Origin: a virus
Strand: one strand, 5' to 3'
UHGV virus genome: UHGV-1334481
Length of the DNA: 57,107 nucleotides
The position numbers and the translations under genes are program-made. The notes under the pieces are model-generated. The model had not been told where the DNA came from. It was given only the letters and a program-made list of their open reading frames with translations, and did not search any database. Positions within the stretch are counted from its first letter, which is position 1. Every line of letters starts with the position of its first letter. Shown piece by piece: positions 43,939 to 54,612 of the stretch.

Positions 43939-44301
43939 ATGAAAGCATATCAAATTCTTGAAGGCACACATAAAGGTACTATTTATTTTGAAGATGGTAT
44001 TCAAGCACGAATTATTGTTTCTAAAACCTTTAAAGAGGATTCTTTTGTAGACCCAGAAATTTTCTACGGTTTGCACACCCGTGAAATTGAAATTGAACCA
44101 CAACCTACAGTTAAAATTGAAGGTGGTCAACACCTGAACGTTAACGTTCTGCGTCGTGAAACTCTGGAAGATGCAGTTAAGCATCCGGAAAAATATCCGC
44201 AGCTGACCATCCGTGTATCCGGTTATGCAGTTCGCTTTAACTCTCTGACTCCGGAACAGCAGCGCGACGTTATCGCTCGTACCTTTACTGAGAGCTTGTA
44301 A
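43939..44301 (+). CDS. grcA: autonomous glycyl radical cofactor GrcA/YfiD-like protein (T4 Y06I-type)
   Basis: C-terminal half matches E. coli GrcA from memory, including [29 protein letters not shown]; that half has host-like GC-rich codons. Confidence 0.85.
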
Positions 44302-44522
44302 TGGCAAAGATAATTATTGAAGGTTCTAAAGATGTGTTAAATGCTTTCGCAGAATGGTTTAGTAATTCAGGCGAACAGCAATTTAATGAAGCGTGGAATA
44401 TGGGTGATATTAGTGGAATTTATCCTACGACAGAAATTTCTGTTCAGGGATATGGCATTTATGAACCTATTCGTTTAGTTGAATATGATTTGGGAACGGG
44501 CGAGGAAGTCAAATATGATTGA
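44301..44522 (+). CDS. hypothetical protein
   Basis: 73-aa ORF coupled to the grcA-like stop. Confidence 0.5.
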   Translation: MAKIIIEGSKDVLNAFAEWFSNSGEQQFNEAWNMGDISGIYPTTEISVQGYGIYEPIRLVEYDLGTGEEVKYD

Positions 44523-44781
44523 AGATATTAAAGGTTATAAGCCGCACACTGAAGAGAAAATCGATAAAGTGAATGCTATCAAAGACGCTGAAGTTCGTTT
44601 AGGACTTATCTTTGACGCTTTATATGATGAATTCTGGGAAGCACTAGATAATTGTGAAGACTACGAATTCGCAAAGAATTATGCTGAAAGCCTCGATCAG
44701 TTAACTATTGCTAAAACGAAACTCAAAGAAGCTAGTATGTGGGCTTGTCGTGCTGTGTTCCAACCAGAGGAAAAATATTAA
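44515..44781 (+). CDS. hypothetical protein
   Basis: Start at ATG 44515 overlapping the upstream stop; 88 aa. Confidence 0.5.
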
Positions 44782-45062: not shown

Positions 45063-45090
45063 TTTACTTTTCCTCTTGACTGTGGTATAA
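45063..45090 (+). promoter_or_regulatory. T4-type early promoter
   Basis: -35 gtttac and -10 tataat, followed by AAGAGGAG RBS. Confidence 0.55.
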
Positions 45091-45118
45091 TTTTTCTATC
45101 AGTTAAGAGGAGAATAAC

Positions 45119-45580
45119 ATGACTATCAACACAGAAGTTTTTATCCGTCGAAATAAGCTTCGTCGTCACTTTGAGTCGGAGTTTCGTCAAATTAACAATG
45201 AGATTCGTGAGGCATCAAAAGCAGCAGGAGTCTCATCGTTTCATCTAAAATATTCTCAGCATCTTCTTGATCGTGCAATTCAACGGGAGATTGATGAGAC
45301 ATATGTTTTTGAATTATTCCACAAAATAAAAGACCACGTTTTAGAAGTTAATGAATTCCTGAGTATGCCTCCACGTCCTGATATTGACGAGGATTTTATT
45401 GATGGGGTTGAATACCGTCCTGGACGTTTAGAAATCACAGATGGAAATCTTTGGCTTGGATTTACGGTTTGTAAACCTAATGCGAAGTTCAAAGACCCGT
45501 CGCTTCAATGCAGGATGGCAATTATCAACAGTCGTCGTTTACCAGGAAAGGCTTCTAAAGCAGTAATTAAAACTCAATGA
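45119..45580 (+). CDS. hypothetical protein
   Basis: 153-aa ORF with strong RBS. Confidence 0.6.
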   Translation: MTINTEVFIRRNKLRRHFESEFRQINNEIREASKAAGVSSFHLKYSQHLLDRAIQREIDETYVFELFHKIKDHVLEVNEFLSMPPRPDIDEDFIDGVEYRPGRLEITDGNLWLGFTVCKPNAKFKDPSLQCRMAIINSRRLPGKASKAVIKTQ

Positions 45581-45587
45581 GGTAAGC

Positions 45588-46133
45588 ATGAGAAAAGCAC
45601 TACTCGCTGGTCTATTGGCCATTTCAATGATGGCACATAGCTCCGAGCATACTTTCAGTAATGTCCAACTCGATAACATGCGTTACGCGTATCAATTCGG
45701 GGAACAATTTTCTAAGGATGGAAAATATAAAACACACAAAAATATCCACAAGAGCGGATTGGGTCATATAATGGCTGCTATTTTATGGCAAGAAAGCTCT
45801 GCCGGAGTTAATTTAAAATCTAAACCAAAGCATCATGCCTATGGAATGTTCCAAAATTATTTGCCTACTATGCGAGCAAGAGTTAAGGAACTTGGTTATA
45901 ATATGACCGATGCTGAAATAAAAAGAATGTTGAATAAACGGTCCAATTCAGCTTCCTGGGCGTACATTGAACTTTCTTATTGGTTAAATATACATAAGGG
46001 CGATATAAGAAAGGCGATATCCTCTTATAATTCGGGATGGAATGTTAAAGCAGGTTCTAAATATGCTTCTGAAGTCCTAGAAAAGGCTAATTACCTTAAA
46101 AATAATAAACTTTTGGAAATAGTAAATGACTAA
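45588..46133 (+). CDS. secreted lytic-transglycosylase-like (SLT domain) protein
   Basis: N-terminal signal peptide MRKALLAGLLAISMMAHS; SLT-like motifs WQESSAG, YGMFQN, SYNSGWN. Confidence 0.5.
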   Translation: MRKALLAGLLAISMMAHSSEHTFSNVQLDNMRYAYQFGEQFSKDGKYKTHKNIHKSGLGHIMAAILWQESSAGVNLKSKPKHHAYGMFQNYLPTMRARVKELGYNMTDAEIKRMLNKRSNSASWAYIELSYWLNIHKGDIRKAISSYNSGWNVKAGSKYASEVLEKANYLKNNKLLEIVND

Positions 46134-46473
46134 AATTTTGGTTTTATGTATAGGATTAATTTCATTTTCTGCTTCTGCGTTAGCAGATACATCATATACT
46201 GAAATTAGAGAGTATGTAAACCGTACTGCCGCGGATTATTGTGGGAAAAATAAAGCATGCCAAGCTGAATTTGCGCAGAAATTAATATATGCATATAAAG
46301 ACGGAGAAAGAGATAAATCAAGCAGATACAAAAATGATACATTGTTAAAACGATATGCTAAAAAGTGGAATACCTTAGAATGTTCAGTTGCGGAGGAGAA
46401 AGATAAAGCCGCTTGTCATTCAATGGTTGACCGTTTAGTAGATTCTTATAATCGAGGATTGAGTACTAGATGA
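46126..46473 (+). CDS. secreted Cys-containing protein
   Basis: Signal peptide MTKILVLCIGLISFSASALA; 4 Cys in the mature part. Confidence 0.55.
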   Translation: MTKILVLCIGLISFSASALADTSYTEIREYVNRTAADYCGKNKACQAEFAQKLIYAYKDGERDKSSRYKNDTLLKRYAKKWNTLECSVAEEKDKAACHSMVDRLVDSYNRGLSTR

Positions 46474-46949
46474 TTGTAAAATATATCAAGGGCGATATTG
46501 TCGCCCTATTTCTTCAAGGTAATATTATTGCGCACGGGTGCAATTGCTTCCACACAATGGGCTCTGGCGTAGCGGGTCAATTAGCAAGAGCCTATCCCAA
46601 AATTTTAGAAATAGATAAAACCACTACCGAGTACGGTTCTCGTGATAAATTAGGCGATATGTCTATTGTTTTTAAACATAGTCCTACGGGATTTGGTATA
46701 TGCTATAACCTGTATACACAATACGAACCGGGTCCTAATCTTGATTATGGTGCTTTAGTAAACTGCATGATAGAATTAAATCTACAGGCAGAAACCCTTT
46801 TGTTTAAACCAGTAATTTACATTCCACGTATAGGTTGCGGTATTGCTGGCGGCGATTGGGATAAGGTTTCTAAATTAATCGACATGTTTACTCCTGATAT
46901 TGATTTAATAGTGGTGGATTATGAAAGTACATTACCCGCATCCGTTTGA
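46470..46949 (+). CDS. macro-domain-like protein (putative ADP-ribose binding/hydrolase)
   Basis: Motifs GDIV..., HGCNCFHTMGSGVAGQL and IPRIGCGIAGGDW resemble macro-domain signatures; by eye only. Confidence 0.45.
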   Translation: MIVKYIKGDIVALFLQGNIIAHGCNCFHTMGSGVAGQLARAYPKILEIDKTTTEYGSRDKLGDMSIVFKHSPTGFGICYNLYTQYEPGPNLDYGALVNCMIELNLQAETLLFKPVIYIPRIGCGIAGGDWDKVSKLIDMFTPDIDLIVVDYESTLPASV

Positions 46950-47697: not shown

Positions 47698-48279
47698 ATG
47701 GCGAGTTTAATTTTTACTTACGCAGCAATGAATGCTGGAAAATCTGCTTCTCTTTTGACTGCTGCGCATAATTATAAAGAACGCGGAATGGGTGTATTAG
47801 TTCTTAAGCCTGCTATTGATACTCGTGATTCTGTCTGTGAAGTCGTTTCTCGCATTGGAATTAAGCAGGAAGCGAATATTATTACGGATGATATGGATAT
47901 TTTTGAGTTCTATAAATGGGCTGAAGCACAAAAGGATATTCATTGTGTATTTGTAGATGAAGCCCAGTTTTTAAAAACTGAACAGGTGCATCAATTAAGC
48001 CGAATTGTTGATACATATAATGTTCCTGTTATGGCTTATGGACTAAGGACTGATTTCGCTGGAAAATTATTTGAAGGTTCTAAAGAACTTTTGGCGATTG
48101 CAGATAAACTTATTGAACTAAAAGCAGTTTGTCATTGTGGTAAAAAAGCTATTATGACAGCTCGATTAATGGAAGATGGAACGCCAGTTAAAGAAGGTAA
48201 TCAAATCTGTATTGGTGATGAAATTTATGTTTCTTTGTGTAGAAAACATTGGAATGAATTAACTAAAAAGCTTGGTTAG
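47698..48279 (+). CDS. tk: thymidine kinase
   Basis: 193 aa; P-loop MNAGKSASLL, VDEAQF motif and C-terminal Cys cluster; same length as T4 Tk. Confidence 0.92.
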   Translation: MASLIFTYAAMNAGKSASLLTAAHNYKERGMGVLVLKPAIDTRDSVCEVVSRIGIKQEANIITDDMDIFEFYKWAEAQKDIHCVFVDEAQFLKTEQVHQLSRIVDTYNVPVMAYGLRTDFAGKLFEGSKELLAIADKLIELKAVCHCGKKAIMTARLMEDGTPVKEGNQICIGDEIYVSLCRKHWNELTKKLG

Positions 48280-54204: not shown

Positions 54205-54612
54205 ATGAAACAGTTGATAATTAAAAGATTGAATTTATTGATATGTTGTTTATGTGTAGTAGTTGCATATGGTTATTACGCAATTAATGATTATATGCAT
54301 TATAAAGATTATGATGTTACTGTAGTTAATACCCTTACAGGAACTCAAGGAAAGGGGTCTAGTTTATCGTTTATTGCCGTATATGAACTCAAAGACGGTT
54401 ATAGATTTAGTGAATATATTTCCCCAGAGATGTATTCTTCAATAGAAAAAGGTGATAATATTACTGTAAGTTTACGTCCTTTCGACGTAAAACAGACATG
54501 GTTTGATAATATTGTTTGGTTCTTTGGAATGGTATTAGTTCAATCTGTGTGTGGTGCTTATATAGTCTTTTCCATCATATTCTGTGTATTTAGTAAAATT
54601 GAAATTGAGTGA
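54205..54612 (+). CDS. membrane protein
   Basis: 135 aa with N- and C-terminal hydrophobic segments. Confidence 0.55.
   Translation: MKQLIIKRLNLLICCLCVVVAYGYYAINDYMHYKDYDVTVVNTLTGTQGKGSSLSFIAVYELKDGYRFSEYISPEMYSSIEKGDNITVSLRPFDVKQTWFDNIVWFFGMVLVQSVCGAYIVFSIIFCVFSKIEIE

What the first reader, a model, noticed from the sequence alone, without database searches (positions are those of the whole stretch)
45588..46473. Two adjacent genes for secreted proteins, one with lytic-transglycosylase-like motifs
The ORFs at 45588-46133 and 46126-46473 both begin with classical signal peptides, which is unusual for early phage genes. The first has SLT-domain-like motifs (WQESSAG, GMFQN, SYNSGWN) and the second is a small Cys-containing protein. 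Periplasm-targeted early proteins in T-even phages typically act in superinfection exclusion or lysis inhibition (Imm, Sp, RI), so this pair may modulate the cell wall or block incoming phage.
Basis: inference. Interest (0 to 1): 0.5.

Follow-up and report, generated by a model that had tools for sequence, protein, structure and literature searches.

The report
Phage T4 vs.1–vs exported gene pair
These are the already catalogued phage T4 genes vs.1 and vs: the first encodes a cell-wall-cutting enzyme predicted to be sent to the periplasm, and the second, long labelled a modifier of a cytoplasmic tRNA-charging enzyme, also looks like an exported protein, which puts that label in doubt.

Summary
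The window is a Tequatrovirus (T4-type) genome. The two ORFs are T4 genes vs.1 (45588-46133, 181 aa) and vs (46126-46473, 115 aa), lying between regB and tk.4.

Vs.1 is a single-domain family-1 (GH23/SLT) lytic transglycosylase. It scores above the Pfam SLT cut-off. Its Glu69-Ser, GxFQ, YNxG and Tyr159 motifs are invariant from T4 to Acinetobacter, Ackermannviridae and Felix-type phages, and its predicted fold matches MltD, Slt70 and LtgA. This similarity was already published (Nolan 2006).

Both proteins have N-termini that fit a Sec signal peptide, and homologues keep the type but not the sequence.

Vs is annotated everywhere as "valyl-tRNA synthetase modifier". Several features argue for export instead:
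- four invariant cysteines placed to close two helical hairpins;
- a lipoprotein-signal variant in one distant homologue;
- no internal start codon that could give a signal-less form;
- a position directly after vs.1 in 27 of 27 viral loci.

In public T4 transposon data, vs and vs.1 insertions lose fitness together while the flanking genes do not.

Best reading: an early/middle-expressed periplasmic cell-wall module. The genes are known. The conflict between Vs topology and its annotation is the only potentially new point.

The parts
45588..46133 (+). vs.1 CDS (181 aa; predicted mature protein 163 aa, 18.8 kDa, pI 9.65): exported family-1 lytic transglycosylase
   Evidence: ORF. Annotated vs.1 in LR746311. 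PHROG 600, E 5.6e-69. Pfam SLT above cut-off. AF2 pLDDT 88.6. Foldseek top hits are MltD, LtgA, Slt70 and Cj0843.
45588..45641 (+). Predicted Sec signal peptide of Vs.1 (residues 1-18, MRKALLAGLLAISMMAHS | SEHTF)
   Evidence: Heuristic n/h/c-region analysis. The type is conserved but not the sequence in 75 of 77 homologues. AF2 pLDDT is about 55 here against >90 for the rest. The Mineola annotators also note a 'non cytoplasmic domain'.
45768..46049 (+). SLT (GH23) catalytic domain, residues 61-154. Includes catalytic Glu69 (45792-45794), G86-M-F-Q89 and S146-Y-N-S-G150. Tyr159 lies just beyond the domain.
   Evidence: Pfam PF01464 envelope 61-154. E69, G86, Q89, N90, Y147, N148, G150 and Y159 are invariant in alignments A2 (30 sequences) and A3 (13 sequences, down to 30% identity, four phage groups).
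46126..46473 (+). vs CDS (115 aa; predicted mature protein 95 aa, 11.05 kDa, pI 8.9): small four-helix protein with four invariant Cys, annotated 'valyl-tRNA synthetase modifier'
   Evidence: ORF. Annotation. PHROG 1256, E 1.6e-39. Homologues carry PF26829 ValRS_modifier. AF2 residues 21-115 have pLDDT >90, with helices 22-39, 43-63, 70-86 and 91-112. C39, C45, C86 and C97 are invariant.
46126..46185 (+). Predicted Sec signal peptide of Vs (residues 1-20, MTKILVLCIGLISFSASALA | DTSYT)
   Evidence: Heuristic passes in 17 of 19 homologues. The distant homologue P0096 has a lipobox (LSG|C) instead. AF2 pLDDT is about 43 for residues 1-20. There is no in-frame ATG/GTG/TTG between codons 5 and 73, so internal initiation cannot give a signal-less isoform.
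46126..46133 (+). 8-nt overlap of the vs.1 stop and the vs start (ATGACTAA); possible translational coupling
   Evidence: Sequence. In 27 of 27 IMG/VR loci the Vs match lies directly downstream of the Vs.1 match; the tblastn match ends lie -4 to +106 nt apart, the larger values where a match is partial.
45063..45091 (+). Sigma-70-like promoter (TTTACT-17-TATAAT with TG) upstream of regB; likely drives regB-vs.1-vs early transcription
   Evidence: Consensus scan only. The total number of such sites in the region is not above the shuffle expectation. No TATAAATA late-promoter motif lies between 42405 and 48289.

Best explanation
The two ORFs are the T4-type genes vs.1 and vs. They are transcribed early with regB and made as early/middle proteins.

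Vs.1 is made with a cleavable Sec signal peptide and released as a soluble, basic periplasmic enzyme of about 18.8 kDa. It consists of little more than one GH23/SLT domain. With Glu69 as the single acid/base catalyst it should cleave the MurNAc-beta-1,4-GlcNAc bond of peptidoglycan and form 1,6-anhydro-MurNAc ends. In other words, it is a small 'specialised' lytic transglycosylase that remodels or locally opens the sacculus during infection, not the terminal endolysin.

Vs is most likely exported too. Cleavage after Ala20 would give an 11-kDa four-helix protein. The two conserved Cys pairs (C39-C45 and C86-C97) sit at the two helix-hairpin turns and would form disulfides in the oxidising periplasm. 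Because vs always directly follows vs.1 and the two share a fitness phenotype, I infer that Vs acts in the same periplasmic process as Vs.1, as a partner or regulator.

Shown: gene identity, domain family, motif conservation, signal-type N-termini, synteny, and the shared transposon phenotype in public data. Inferred: export, disulfides, enzyme activity, the partnership, and therefore the doubt about the cytoplasmic 'ValRS modifier' label.
For: - Identity.
- Lytic transglycosylase: Pfam SLT 23.4 bits against a cut-off of 21.3. All four family-1 motifs are invariant across T4-like, Aeromonas, Acinetobacter, Ackermannviridae and Felixounavirus homologues. AF2 pLDDT is 88.6, and the best PDB matches are all family-1 lytic transglycosylases.
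- Export of both: n/h/c-region signal peptides are conserved in type but not sequence (75/77 and 17/19). The known periplasmic RI is one of the only two other hits in the window. The N-termini are excluded from the confident fold.
- Vs specifically: four invariant Cys survive in relatives that are barely detectable by sequence, with loop lengths of C-x5-C and C-x8/10-C. One homologue uses a lipobox. No internal start codon exists. N-terminally His-tagged full-length Vs was insoluble, as expected for a blocked signal peptide.
- Pairing: Vs.1 lies immediately upstream of Vs in 27 of 27 IMG/VR loci (41-100% Vs identity) and in Acinetobacter phage AC4 and Klebsiella phage Mineola.
- Shared phenotype: in T4 HIDEN-SEQ tables both genes have about 10-fold fewer insertion reads than regB, tk.4, vs.3 and vs.4 in LB. 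Both fall further in M9 (vs -2.19, vs.1 -0.87 log2) and on clinical strain CFE299 (vs.1 -1.20, padj 0.015; vs -1.04). The flanking genes do not.
- Precedent: T4 Spackle is a 97-aa, signal-peptide-bearing, helical, disulfide-containing periplasmic inhibitor of a phage muralytic enzyme.
Against: - No dedicated signal-peptide predictor and no experiment was available. Export of both proteins is a prediction.
- Classical genetics and biochemistry (from my own knowledge of Neidhardt, Marchin and co-workers, not checked here because those papers were not held) tie the vs locus to a ~10-kDa factor that alters cytoplasmic ValRS.
- The M9-specific defect of a vs knockout fits an aminoacylation role at least as well as a cell-wall role.
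- Vs.1 occurs in about 2085 phage records and Vs in only about 796, so Vs.1 does not need Vs.
- The weaker phenotype of vs.1 insertions could be polarity on vs through the 8-nt overlap.
- Four Cys could in principle bind a metal. The model coordinates could not be inspected to check S-S distances.
- The Foldseek E-values for Vs.1 are modest (7e-3, TM 0.45-0.53).
Confidence: 0.6

Rival explanations
1. Classical annotation is right. Vs is the cytoplasmic tau factor that binds host valyl-tRNA synthetase and changes its properties. Its hydrophobic N-terminus is not used for export, or only a fraction is exported. Vs.1 is an unrelated neighbouring gene.
For: The annotation is universal in phage records and in PHROG 1256 / PF26829. 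The vs knockout is defective specifically in minimal medium, where amino-acid supply limits growth. From my own knowledge, unverified here: vs mutants were isolated by loss of ValRS modification and interact genetically with valS(ts).
Against: - A conserved, cleavable-type signal peptide, a lipobox variant and four invariant Cys in hairpin turns are hard to reconcile with a cytoplasmic protein.
- No internal start codon exists.
- The reported ~10-kDa size of tau (my own knowledge) fits the processed 11.05-kDa form better than the 13.08-kDa precursor. That would imply passage through the export machinery.
- I could not access any paper showing that this ORF, rather than a neighbour, encodes tau.
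Confidence: 0.3
2. Vs is a Spackle-like periplasmic inhibitor (immunity protein). It restrains the Vs.1 transglycosylase, or another muralytic enzyme, so that the wall is not breached before programmed lysis. This is a specific sub-case of the best explanation.
For: - Its size, signal peptide, helical fold and cysteines parallel Spackle.
- vs strictly follows vs.1.
- Vs evolves faster than Vs.1 in the same genomes (41-67% vs 61-84% identity).
- In M9, loss of vs is worse than loss of vs.1 (-2.19 vs -0.87), as expected if unrestrained Vs.1 is harmful.
Against: - Most Vs.1-bearing phages lack Vs.
- vs.1 insertions are themselves depleted to the same level as vs insertions in LB, and more significantly so on CFE299. 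A pure toxin/antidote model does not predict this.
- There is no structural similarity to Spackle or any known lysozyme inhibitor.
Confidence: 0.2
3. One reading: the pair mediates superinfection exclusion or lysis inhibition, like Imm, Sp or RI.
For: Only circumstantial support: early/middle expression and a predicted periplasmic location. rI lies 2 kb downstream.
Against: - The transposon phenotypes appear in single-library growth in minimal medium and on a clinical host. These conditions are not designed to select for exclusion.
- A wall-cutting enzyme has no obvious way of blocking incoming DNA.
Confidence: 0.1
4. Vs.1 is an auxiliary, Sec-exported endolysin that contributes to final host lysis, like signal-peptide or SAR endolysins. 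Vs is unrelated.
For: It is a muralytic domain with an export signal. Some records call homologues 'putative lysin'.
Against: - Timing is early/middle and there is no late promoter.
- T4 has its own endolysin, gene e; the syntenic reference record shows e just upstream of denV.
- The holin gene t and the presumed spanin genes pseT.2 and pseT.3 carry essentially no insertions in the same tables, while vs.1 is dispensable on LB (46 of 52 TA sites hit).
- From my own knowledge: T4 e mutants fail to lyse, so Vs.1 cannot substitute.
Confidence: 0.12

Closest known systems
T4 Vs.1 (UniProt P13311) and its orthologues (PHROG 600)
   Same: It is this protein. It is 99-100% identical to Tequatrovirus orthologues, with the same length, the same 8-nt overlap with vs and the same regB-vs.1-vs-tk.4 synteny. 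The SLT similarity is already published.
   Different: Nothing. The function is still unassigned in the literature I could reach.
Family-1 (GH23, Pfam SLT) bacterial lytic transglycosylases. This covers Slt70, MltD, MltE and LtgA, and especially the small 'specialised' ones attached to secretion and flagellar systems (VirB1, IpgF, EtgA, plasmid R1 P19; named from my own knowledge)
   Same: It has the Glu-Ser, G-x-x-Q, Y-N-x-G and Tyr motifs with similar spacing, a goose-lysozyme-like helical fold, a Sec signal and a single-domain size of about 160 aa.
   Different: It belongs to a phage-only clade: the best 120 profile hits are named as phage proteins or lie on phage-sized contigs (one on a ~169-kb contig is labelled Acinetobacter baumannii); many on short contigs are unnamed. 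Sequence similarity to cellular enzymes is marginal, with no PDB hit by sequence. It has a conserved extra N-terminal helix and hairpin (residues 25-47). No associated envelope-spanning machine is known.
T4 Vs / 'ValRS_modifier' family (UniProt P13310, PF26829, PHROG 1256)
   Same: It is this protein, 99-100% identical to the Vs of T2, T6 and related phages.
   Different: The family's stated function needs a cytoplasmic location. The sequence features predict export.
T4 Spackle (gp61.3), periplasmic inhibitor of the gp5 tail lysozyme
   Same: It is a small early T4 protein with a cleaved ~20-residue signal peptide, an all-helical fold, a disulfide, and a function tied to a phage muralytic enzyme. 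Vs shares these traits apart from the proven function.
Signal-peptide and SAR endolysins (for example P1 Lyz and phage 21 R; from my own knowledge)
   Same: They are phage muralytic enzymes exported by the host Sec system.
   Different: Those are late lysis-cassette genes of the GH24 or other families and are essential for lysis. Vs.1 is early/middle, GH23 and dispensable.

Membership tests
Family-1 lytic transglycosylase (GH23, Pfam SLT PF01464) | Match to the SLT profile above the curated cut-off | tested here: met
   23.4 bits against a cut-off of 21.3, E 4.8e-5, residues 61-154. Many homologues carry a precomputed PF01464 hit.
Family-1 lytic transglycosylase (GH23, Pfam SLT PF01464) | Catalytic Glu in the Glu-Ser motif I | tested here: met
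   E69 is invariant in A2 (30 sequences) and A3 (13 sequences, to 30% identity). S70 is conserved in at least 90% of sequences in A2.
Family-1 lytic transglycosylase (GH23, Pfam SLT PF01464) | Motif II G-[LM]-x-Q, motif III [AS]-Y-N-x-G and motif IV Tyr, with the usual spacing (motif definitions from my own knowledge of Blackburn & Clarke 2001) | tested here: met
   G86-M-F-Q89, S146-Y147-N148-S-G150 and Y159. G86, Q89, Y147, N148, G150 and Y159 are invariant.
Family-1 lytic transglycosylase (GH23, Pfam SLT PF01464) | Goose-type-lysozyme-like helical fold | tested here: met
   AF2 pLDDT 88.6. Of the top 22 Foldseek PDB hits, 21 are lytic transglycosylases (MltD, LtgA, Cj0843, Slt, Slt70) and one is a goose-type-lysozyme-like chitinase, most with probability 0.9-1.0, though E is only 7e-3 to 0.3 and TM 0.43-0.53.
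Family-1 lytic transglycosylase (GH23, Pfam SLT PF01464) | Non-hydrolytic cleavage of peptidoglycan giving 1,6-anhydro-MurNAc products | not testable with these tools
   Needs a sacculus digestion with HPLC-MS.
Sec/SPase I-exported proteins (both ORFs) | Positive n-region, 7-16-residue hydrophobic h-region, small residues at -3 and -1 | tested here: met
   My own heuristic passes both ORFs, 75 of 77 Vs.1 homologues and 17 of 19 Vs homologues, and only 4 of 88 window ORFs including the known RI. SignalP was not available.
Sec/SPase I-exported proteins (both ORFs) | Demonstrated cleavage and periplasmic location | not testable with these tools
   Needs fractionation, N-terminal sequencing or PhoA fusions.
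T4 Vs 'valyl-tRNA synthetase modifier' (PF26829 / PHROG 1256) | Sequence membership | tested here: met
   PHROG 1256 E 1.6e-39. All homologues carry PF26829, named ValRS_modifier. It is 99-100% identical to annotated Vs proteins.
T4 Vs 'valyl-tRNA synthetase modifier' (PF26829 / PHROG 1256) | Cytoplasmic location compatible with binding ValRS | tested here: inconclusive
   Prediction points the other way: signal peptide, lipobox variant, four invariant Cys and no internal start. No localisation experiment was possible.
T4 Vs 'valyl-tRNA synthetase modifier' (PF26829 / PHROG 1256) | Binding to and modification of host ValRS by the product of this ORF | not testable with these tools
   The original papers were not held. 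Later papers only repeat the annotation.
Spackle-like periplasmic inhibitors of muralytic enzymes | Sequence or structural homology to gp61.3 | tested here: not met
Spackle-like periplasmic inhibitors of muralytic enzymes | 1:1 complex with, and inhibition of, a muralytic enzyme | not testable with these tools
Needs biochemistry.
Superinfection-exclusion / lysis-inhibition proteins (Imm, Sp, RI) | Homology to Imm, Sp or RI | tested here: not met
   Pfam, PHROGs and NCBIfam gave no match to an Imm, Sp or RI family, and the fold searches did not retrieve Spackle. No direct comparison with Imm, Sp or RI sequences was run. An exclusion phenotype was not tested.
Sec/SAR endolysins of lysis cassettes | Late expression and requirement for lysis | tested here: not met
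   No late promoter nearby. Early RNA and middle protein. Non-essential on LB in Tn-seq.

The most novel reading that the evidence does not exclude
The ORF that every database calls the T4 'valyl-tRNA synthetase modifier' is in fact a Sec-exported, disulfide-bonded periplasmic protein. It works with the adjacent Vs.1 lytic transglycosylase as a conserved two-gene cell-wall module. This module, not ValRS modification, would underlie the minimal-medium and clinical-strain fitness defects seen in Tn-seq. The 60-year-old tau/ValRS phenomenon would then either map to another gene or reflect association of the processed protein with ValRS after cell breakage.
Probability: 0.3. Interest if true: 0.7.

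Novelty: already known. Interest (0 to 1): 0.4.

Why it matters
The genes and the SLT similarity of Vs.1 are textbook T4 inventory, so on its face the finding is a rediscovery.

Two things give it some value. First, T4-type, Ackermann-type and Felix-type phages all keep a small exported lytic transglycosylase that is not the endolysin, and its role in infection is unknown. Public Tn-seq data now show it matters on a clinical E. coli isolate.

Second, the role of T4's 'ValRS modification' has been open since the 1960s. The gene assigned to it carries the sequence hallmarks expected of a periplasmic protein. If that holds, an annotation copied into hundreds of phage records is wrong or incomplete. 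The recently reported minimal-medium phenotype of vs would then need a cell-envelope explanation. Both questions can be tested directly with simple fusions, fractionation and clean deletions.

Tried and rejected
- Sequence searches of both proteins and of their family profiles against PDB chains found nothing meaningful. The best hits were chance matches to FliK, BBS4 and CHMP4B, plus a marginal goose-lysozyme match at E 0.33.
- NCBIfam gave no hits.
- A profile search of 1.84 billion cluster representatives with the Vs alignment found 8 proteins, so the family is narrow and phage-restricted.
- A profile search with a diverse Vs.1 alignment, meant to find cellular relatives, listed no clearly cellular relative among the best 120: the named hits are phage proteins or lie on phage-sized contigs, and many hits are unnamed.
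- I tried to read the original vs/tau literature and the T4 genome review. Those papers are not held, and full-text searches found only papers that repeat the annotation. I could not establish how the ORF was assigned to the genetic vs locus.
- I considered a signal-less Vs isoform from internal initiation and rejected it, because there is no in-frame start between codons 5 and 73.
- I considered whether adjacency of two signal-peptide ORFs is significant within this window. It is not on its own (4 of 88 ORFs; expected adjacent pairs about 0.14).
I could not inspect Cys-Cys distances because the model coordinates are not exposed.
Full report
**What is there**

The window is a T4-type (Tequatrovirus) genome. 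The stretch 45100-47000 matches 717 phage records, the best at 99.6% identity. In an annotated relative the gene order is denV, vs.8 to vs.3, regB, vs.1, vs, tk.4 ... tk, rI.

In window coordinates the genes are:
- regB, 45119-45580 (Pfam REGB_T4, E 1e-68);
- ORF1, 45588-46133 = vs.1 (181 aa);
- ORF2, 46126-46473 = vs (115 aa);
- the next gene, 46470-46949 = tk.4 (Macro domain);
- tk, 47698-48279.

Lengths and the 8-nt vs.1/vs overlap are the same as in T4 itself: vs 61386-61733 and vs.1 61726-62271, UniProt P13310 and P13311.

**Vs.1**

The protein scores above Pfam's curated threshold for the SLT transglycosylase domain (23.4 vs 21.3 bits, residues 61-154).

I built two alignments. One has 30 homologues down to 41% identity. 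The other has 13 sequences and adds Aeromonas, Acinetobacter, Ackermannviridae and Felixounavirus homologues down to 30% identity. The residues that never change are the ones that define family-1 lytic transglycosylases:
- Glu69 (followed by Ser);
- Gly86-x-x-Gln89-Asn90;
- Tyr147-Asn148-x-Gly150;
- Tyr159.

An AlphaFold2 model built from the alignment is confident (pLDDT 88.6, pTM 0.83). Its best PDB matches are almost all lytic transglycosylases of the same family: MltD, LtgA, Cj0843, Slt and Slt70. Probabilities are about 1.0, but E-values are modest and TM-scores are about 0.5. Sequence-only searches of the PDB see nothing. That is why the assignment was called 'marginal' when first published (Nolan et al. 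2006, PMC1524935).

The family is large but phage-restricted. It occurs in 2085 phage records, and no clearly cellular protein appears among the best 120 profile hits: the named ones are phage proteins or lie on phage-sized contigs, and many are unnamed.

**Export signals**

SignalP was not available, so I scored n-, h- and c-regions with a simple rule set.
- Vs.1 begins MRK, then a 13-residue hydrophobic core and AHS|SE.
- Vs begins MTK, then a 16-residue core and ALA|DT.
- 75 of 77 Vs.1 homologues and 17 of 19 Vs homologues pass. The exceptions are fragments or have altered N-termini.
- The N-terminal sequences themselves are poorly conserved while the mature parts are well conserved.
- Of 88 non-overlapping ORFs in the window, only four pass: these two, rI (a known periplasmic protein, which serves as a positive control) and one membrane-anchor-like ORF.
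- In both AlphaFold models the first ~20 residues are the only low-confidence part.

**Vs**

The mature part (residues 21-115) is predicted with pLDDT >90 as four helices: 22-39, 43-63, 70-86 and 91-112. Cys39 and Cys45 flank the first hairpin turn, and Cys86 and Cys97 flank the third.

All four cysteines are invariant. They persist in relatives so distant that only a profile finds them (P0095, P0096, and the Acinetobacter phage AC4 protein; hhalign probability 89%). In those relatives the second loop shrinks from ten to eight residues. That pattern suggests loop-closing disulfides rather than a metal site, but I could not inspect coordinates.

One distant homologue has replaced the SPase-I site with a textbook lipobox (LSG|C). 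A cytoplasmic protein has no reason to acquire one.

There is no in-frame ATG, GTG or TTG between codons 5 and 73, so a signal-less isoform cannot arise by internal initiation.

The predicted precursor is 13.08 kDa and the mature form 11.05 kDa. N-terminally His-tagged full-length Vs went to inclusion bodies in a published expression screen (PMC8076793). That is what a blocked signal peptide would tend to do.

**The annotation conflict**

Every source calls Vs the 'valyl-tRNA synthetase modifier' (PHROG 1256, PF26829), and some records truncate this to 'valyl-tRNA synthetase'. That function requires the cytoplasm.

I could not reach the papers that assigned this ORF to the genetic vs locus. 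Recent papers simply carry the label forward. From my own knowledge, the tau factor was reported at about 10 kDa. That is closer to the processed form than to the precursor.

The conflict is therefore real but unresolved. The classical in-vivo genetics (vs and valS interactions, recalled from memory) remain the main argument against a purely periplasmic Vs.

**Are the two genes a functional pair?**

In 27 of 27 IMG/VR loci that encode a Vs homologue (41-100% identity), a Vs.1 homologue lies immediately upstream. The same holds in Klebsiella phage Mineola, in a metagenomic contig carrying the lipoprotein variant, and in Acinetobacter phage AC4.

In several of these phages the genes that follow vs also encode signal-peptide proteins. 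AC4 has five in a row. The locus therefore behaves as an island of exported accessory proteins.

Vs evolves faster than Vs.1 in the same genomes.

The converse does not hold. Vs.1 is found in about 2085 records and Vs in about 796. Aeromonas, Ackermann-type and Felix-type phages have Vs.1 without Vs.

**Phenotype from public data**

These numbers come from the supplementary tables of the T4 HIDEN-SEQ transposon study (bioRxiv 10.1101/2025.11.20.689424).

Both genes are dispensable on LB: 30 of 32 and 46 of 52 TA sites were hit. However, both have roughly ten-fold fewer insertion reads than their neighbours after growth in LB:

| Gene | Mean insertion reads in LB |
|---|---|
| vs | 26.6 |
| vs.1 | 22.6 |
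| regB | 178.6 |
| tk.4 | 289.6 |
| vs.3 | 652 |
| vs.4 | 265 |

Two further comparisons show the pair moving together:

| Comparison | vs (log2 fold change) | vs.1 (log2 fold change) | Flanking genes |
|---|---|---|---|
| M9-glucose vs LB | -2.19 (padj ~0; the authors' top hit, confirmed with a knockout) | -0.87 (p 0.0055, padj 0.16) | regB +1.17, tk.4 -0.07, vs.3 -0.06 |
| Clinical isolate CFE299 vs K-12 | -1.04 (not significant) | -1.20 (padj 0.015; one of 11 significant genes, not discussed in the authors' main text) | flat |

So the two genes share a quantitative fitness signature that their neighbours lack. Polarity of vs.1 insertions on vs through the overlap could explain part of this. 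Insertions in regB, upstream in the same unit, show no such effect.

**Expression**

A sigma-70-like promoter lies just upstream of regB (45063-45091). No late-promoter consensus TATAAATA occurs between 42405 and 48289. T4 time-resolved omics class both genes as early RNA and middle protein (PMC9697503 supplement). This rules out a role as a late lysis-cassette endolysin.

**Mechanism I commit to**

Vs.1 is a Sec-exported, soluble periplasmic lytic transglycosylase. It uses Glu69 to cut glycan strands with formation of 1,6-anhydro-MurNAc, and it acts from the middle of infection to remodel or locally open the sacculus. Vs is exported alongside it, is stabilised by two disulfides, and acts in the same process.

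The closest functional precedent is T4 Spackle. It is a 97-aa helical, disulfide-containing periplasmic protein with a cleaved 22-residue signal peptide that binds and inhibits a phage muralytic enzyme (PMC7650644). Vs is not homologous to Spackle.

Whether Vs inhibits, activates or merely accompanies Vs.1 is open. The M9 data (vs worse than vs.1) lean towards restraint. The LB and CFE299 data (both equally needed) lean towards partnership.

My confidence by step:
- export of both proteins, about 0.8;
- Vs.1 being an active lytic transglycosylase, about 0.7;
- a functional partnership, about 0.4.

**Verdict**

The finding is a correct reading of the sequence and a rediscovery of known genes. 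The SLT assignment is confirmed and strengthened. The superinfection-exclusion or lysis-inhibition idea has no support.

The one point that goes beyond the literature I could access is that the 'ValRS modifier' has the anatomy of a periplasmic protein and tracks genetically with the adjacent transglycosylase. That is worth a handful of simple experiments. It does not make the locus a new kind of system.

Noticed in passing
window 46470-46949 (+): The gene right after vs is tk.4, a Macro-domain protein (Pfam E 1.3e-7). A 2025 preprint names it AdfM and shows it protects T4 against the DarTG2 defence system.
   Followed up: partly
window 46489-46507: A perfect 8-bp GC-rich hairpin followed by a T-rich tail (AGGGCGATATTGTCGCCCT ATTTCTTCAA) lies 16 nt after the vs stop codon, inside the first codons of tk.4. 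It could be a terminator or an RNA-stability element that sets regB-vs.1-vs apart from tk.4.
   Followed up: no
window 44515-44781 (+) (vs.4) and 43939-44301 (+) (vs.6): In the syntenic metagenomic locus L002, the vs.4 counterpart carries Pfam Acb2_Tad1_hairpin (an anti-CBASS sponge family) and the vs.6 counterpart carries Gly_radical (GrcA-like). The region upstream of regB therefore also holds anti-defence and metabolic accessory genes.
   Followed up: no
phage records (e.g. Salmonella phage Maynard, Dickeya phage Coodle, Erwinia phiEa104): There are propagated mis-annotations. Many Vs.1 homologues are named 'RegB endoribonuclease', apparently by confusion with the neighbouring gene. Many Vs proteins are named 'valyl-tRNA synthetase', with the word 'modifier' dropped.
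   Followed up: partly
L004 2821-3820; L005 2863-3255; L002 4724-5143: In Acinetobacter phage AC4, Klebsiella phage Mineola and a metagenomic T4-like contig, vs is followed by one to three further small ORFs with signal peptides or a lipobox. One is a conserved family whose mature protein starts with W-E-K/Q-L. T4-type phages like this window lack them.
   Followed up: partly
window 54205-54612 (+): A 135-aa ORF has a strongly hydrophobic, Cys-rich N-terminal segment (MKQLIIKRLNLLICCLCVVVAYG...). It is the only other ORF in the window, besides vs.1, vs and rI, that passes the signal-peptide heuristic. It is more likely a membrane anchor.
   Followed up: no
L033 2501-2656 (IMG/VR contig of 155101 bp; same as NC_055783 phage vB_EcoM_005): This phage keeps a full vs.1 but only the C-terminal half of vs (residues 64-115). 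It is a natural vs truncation that could serve as a test case.
   Followed up: no
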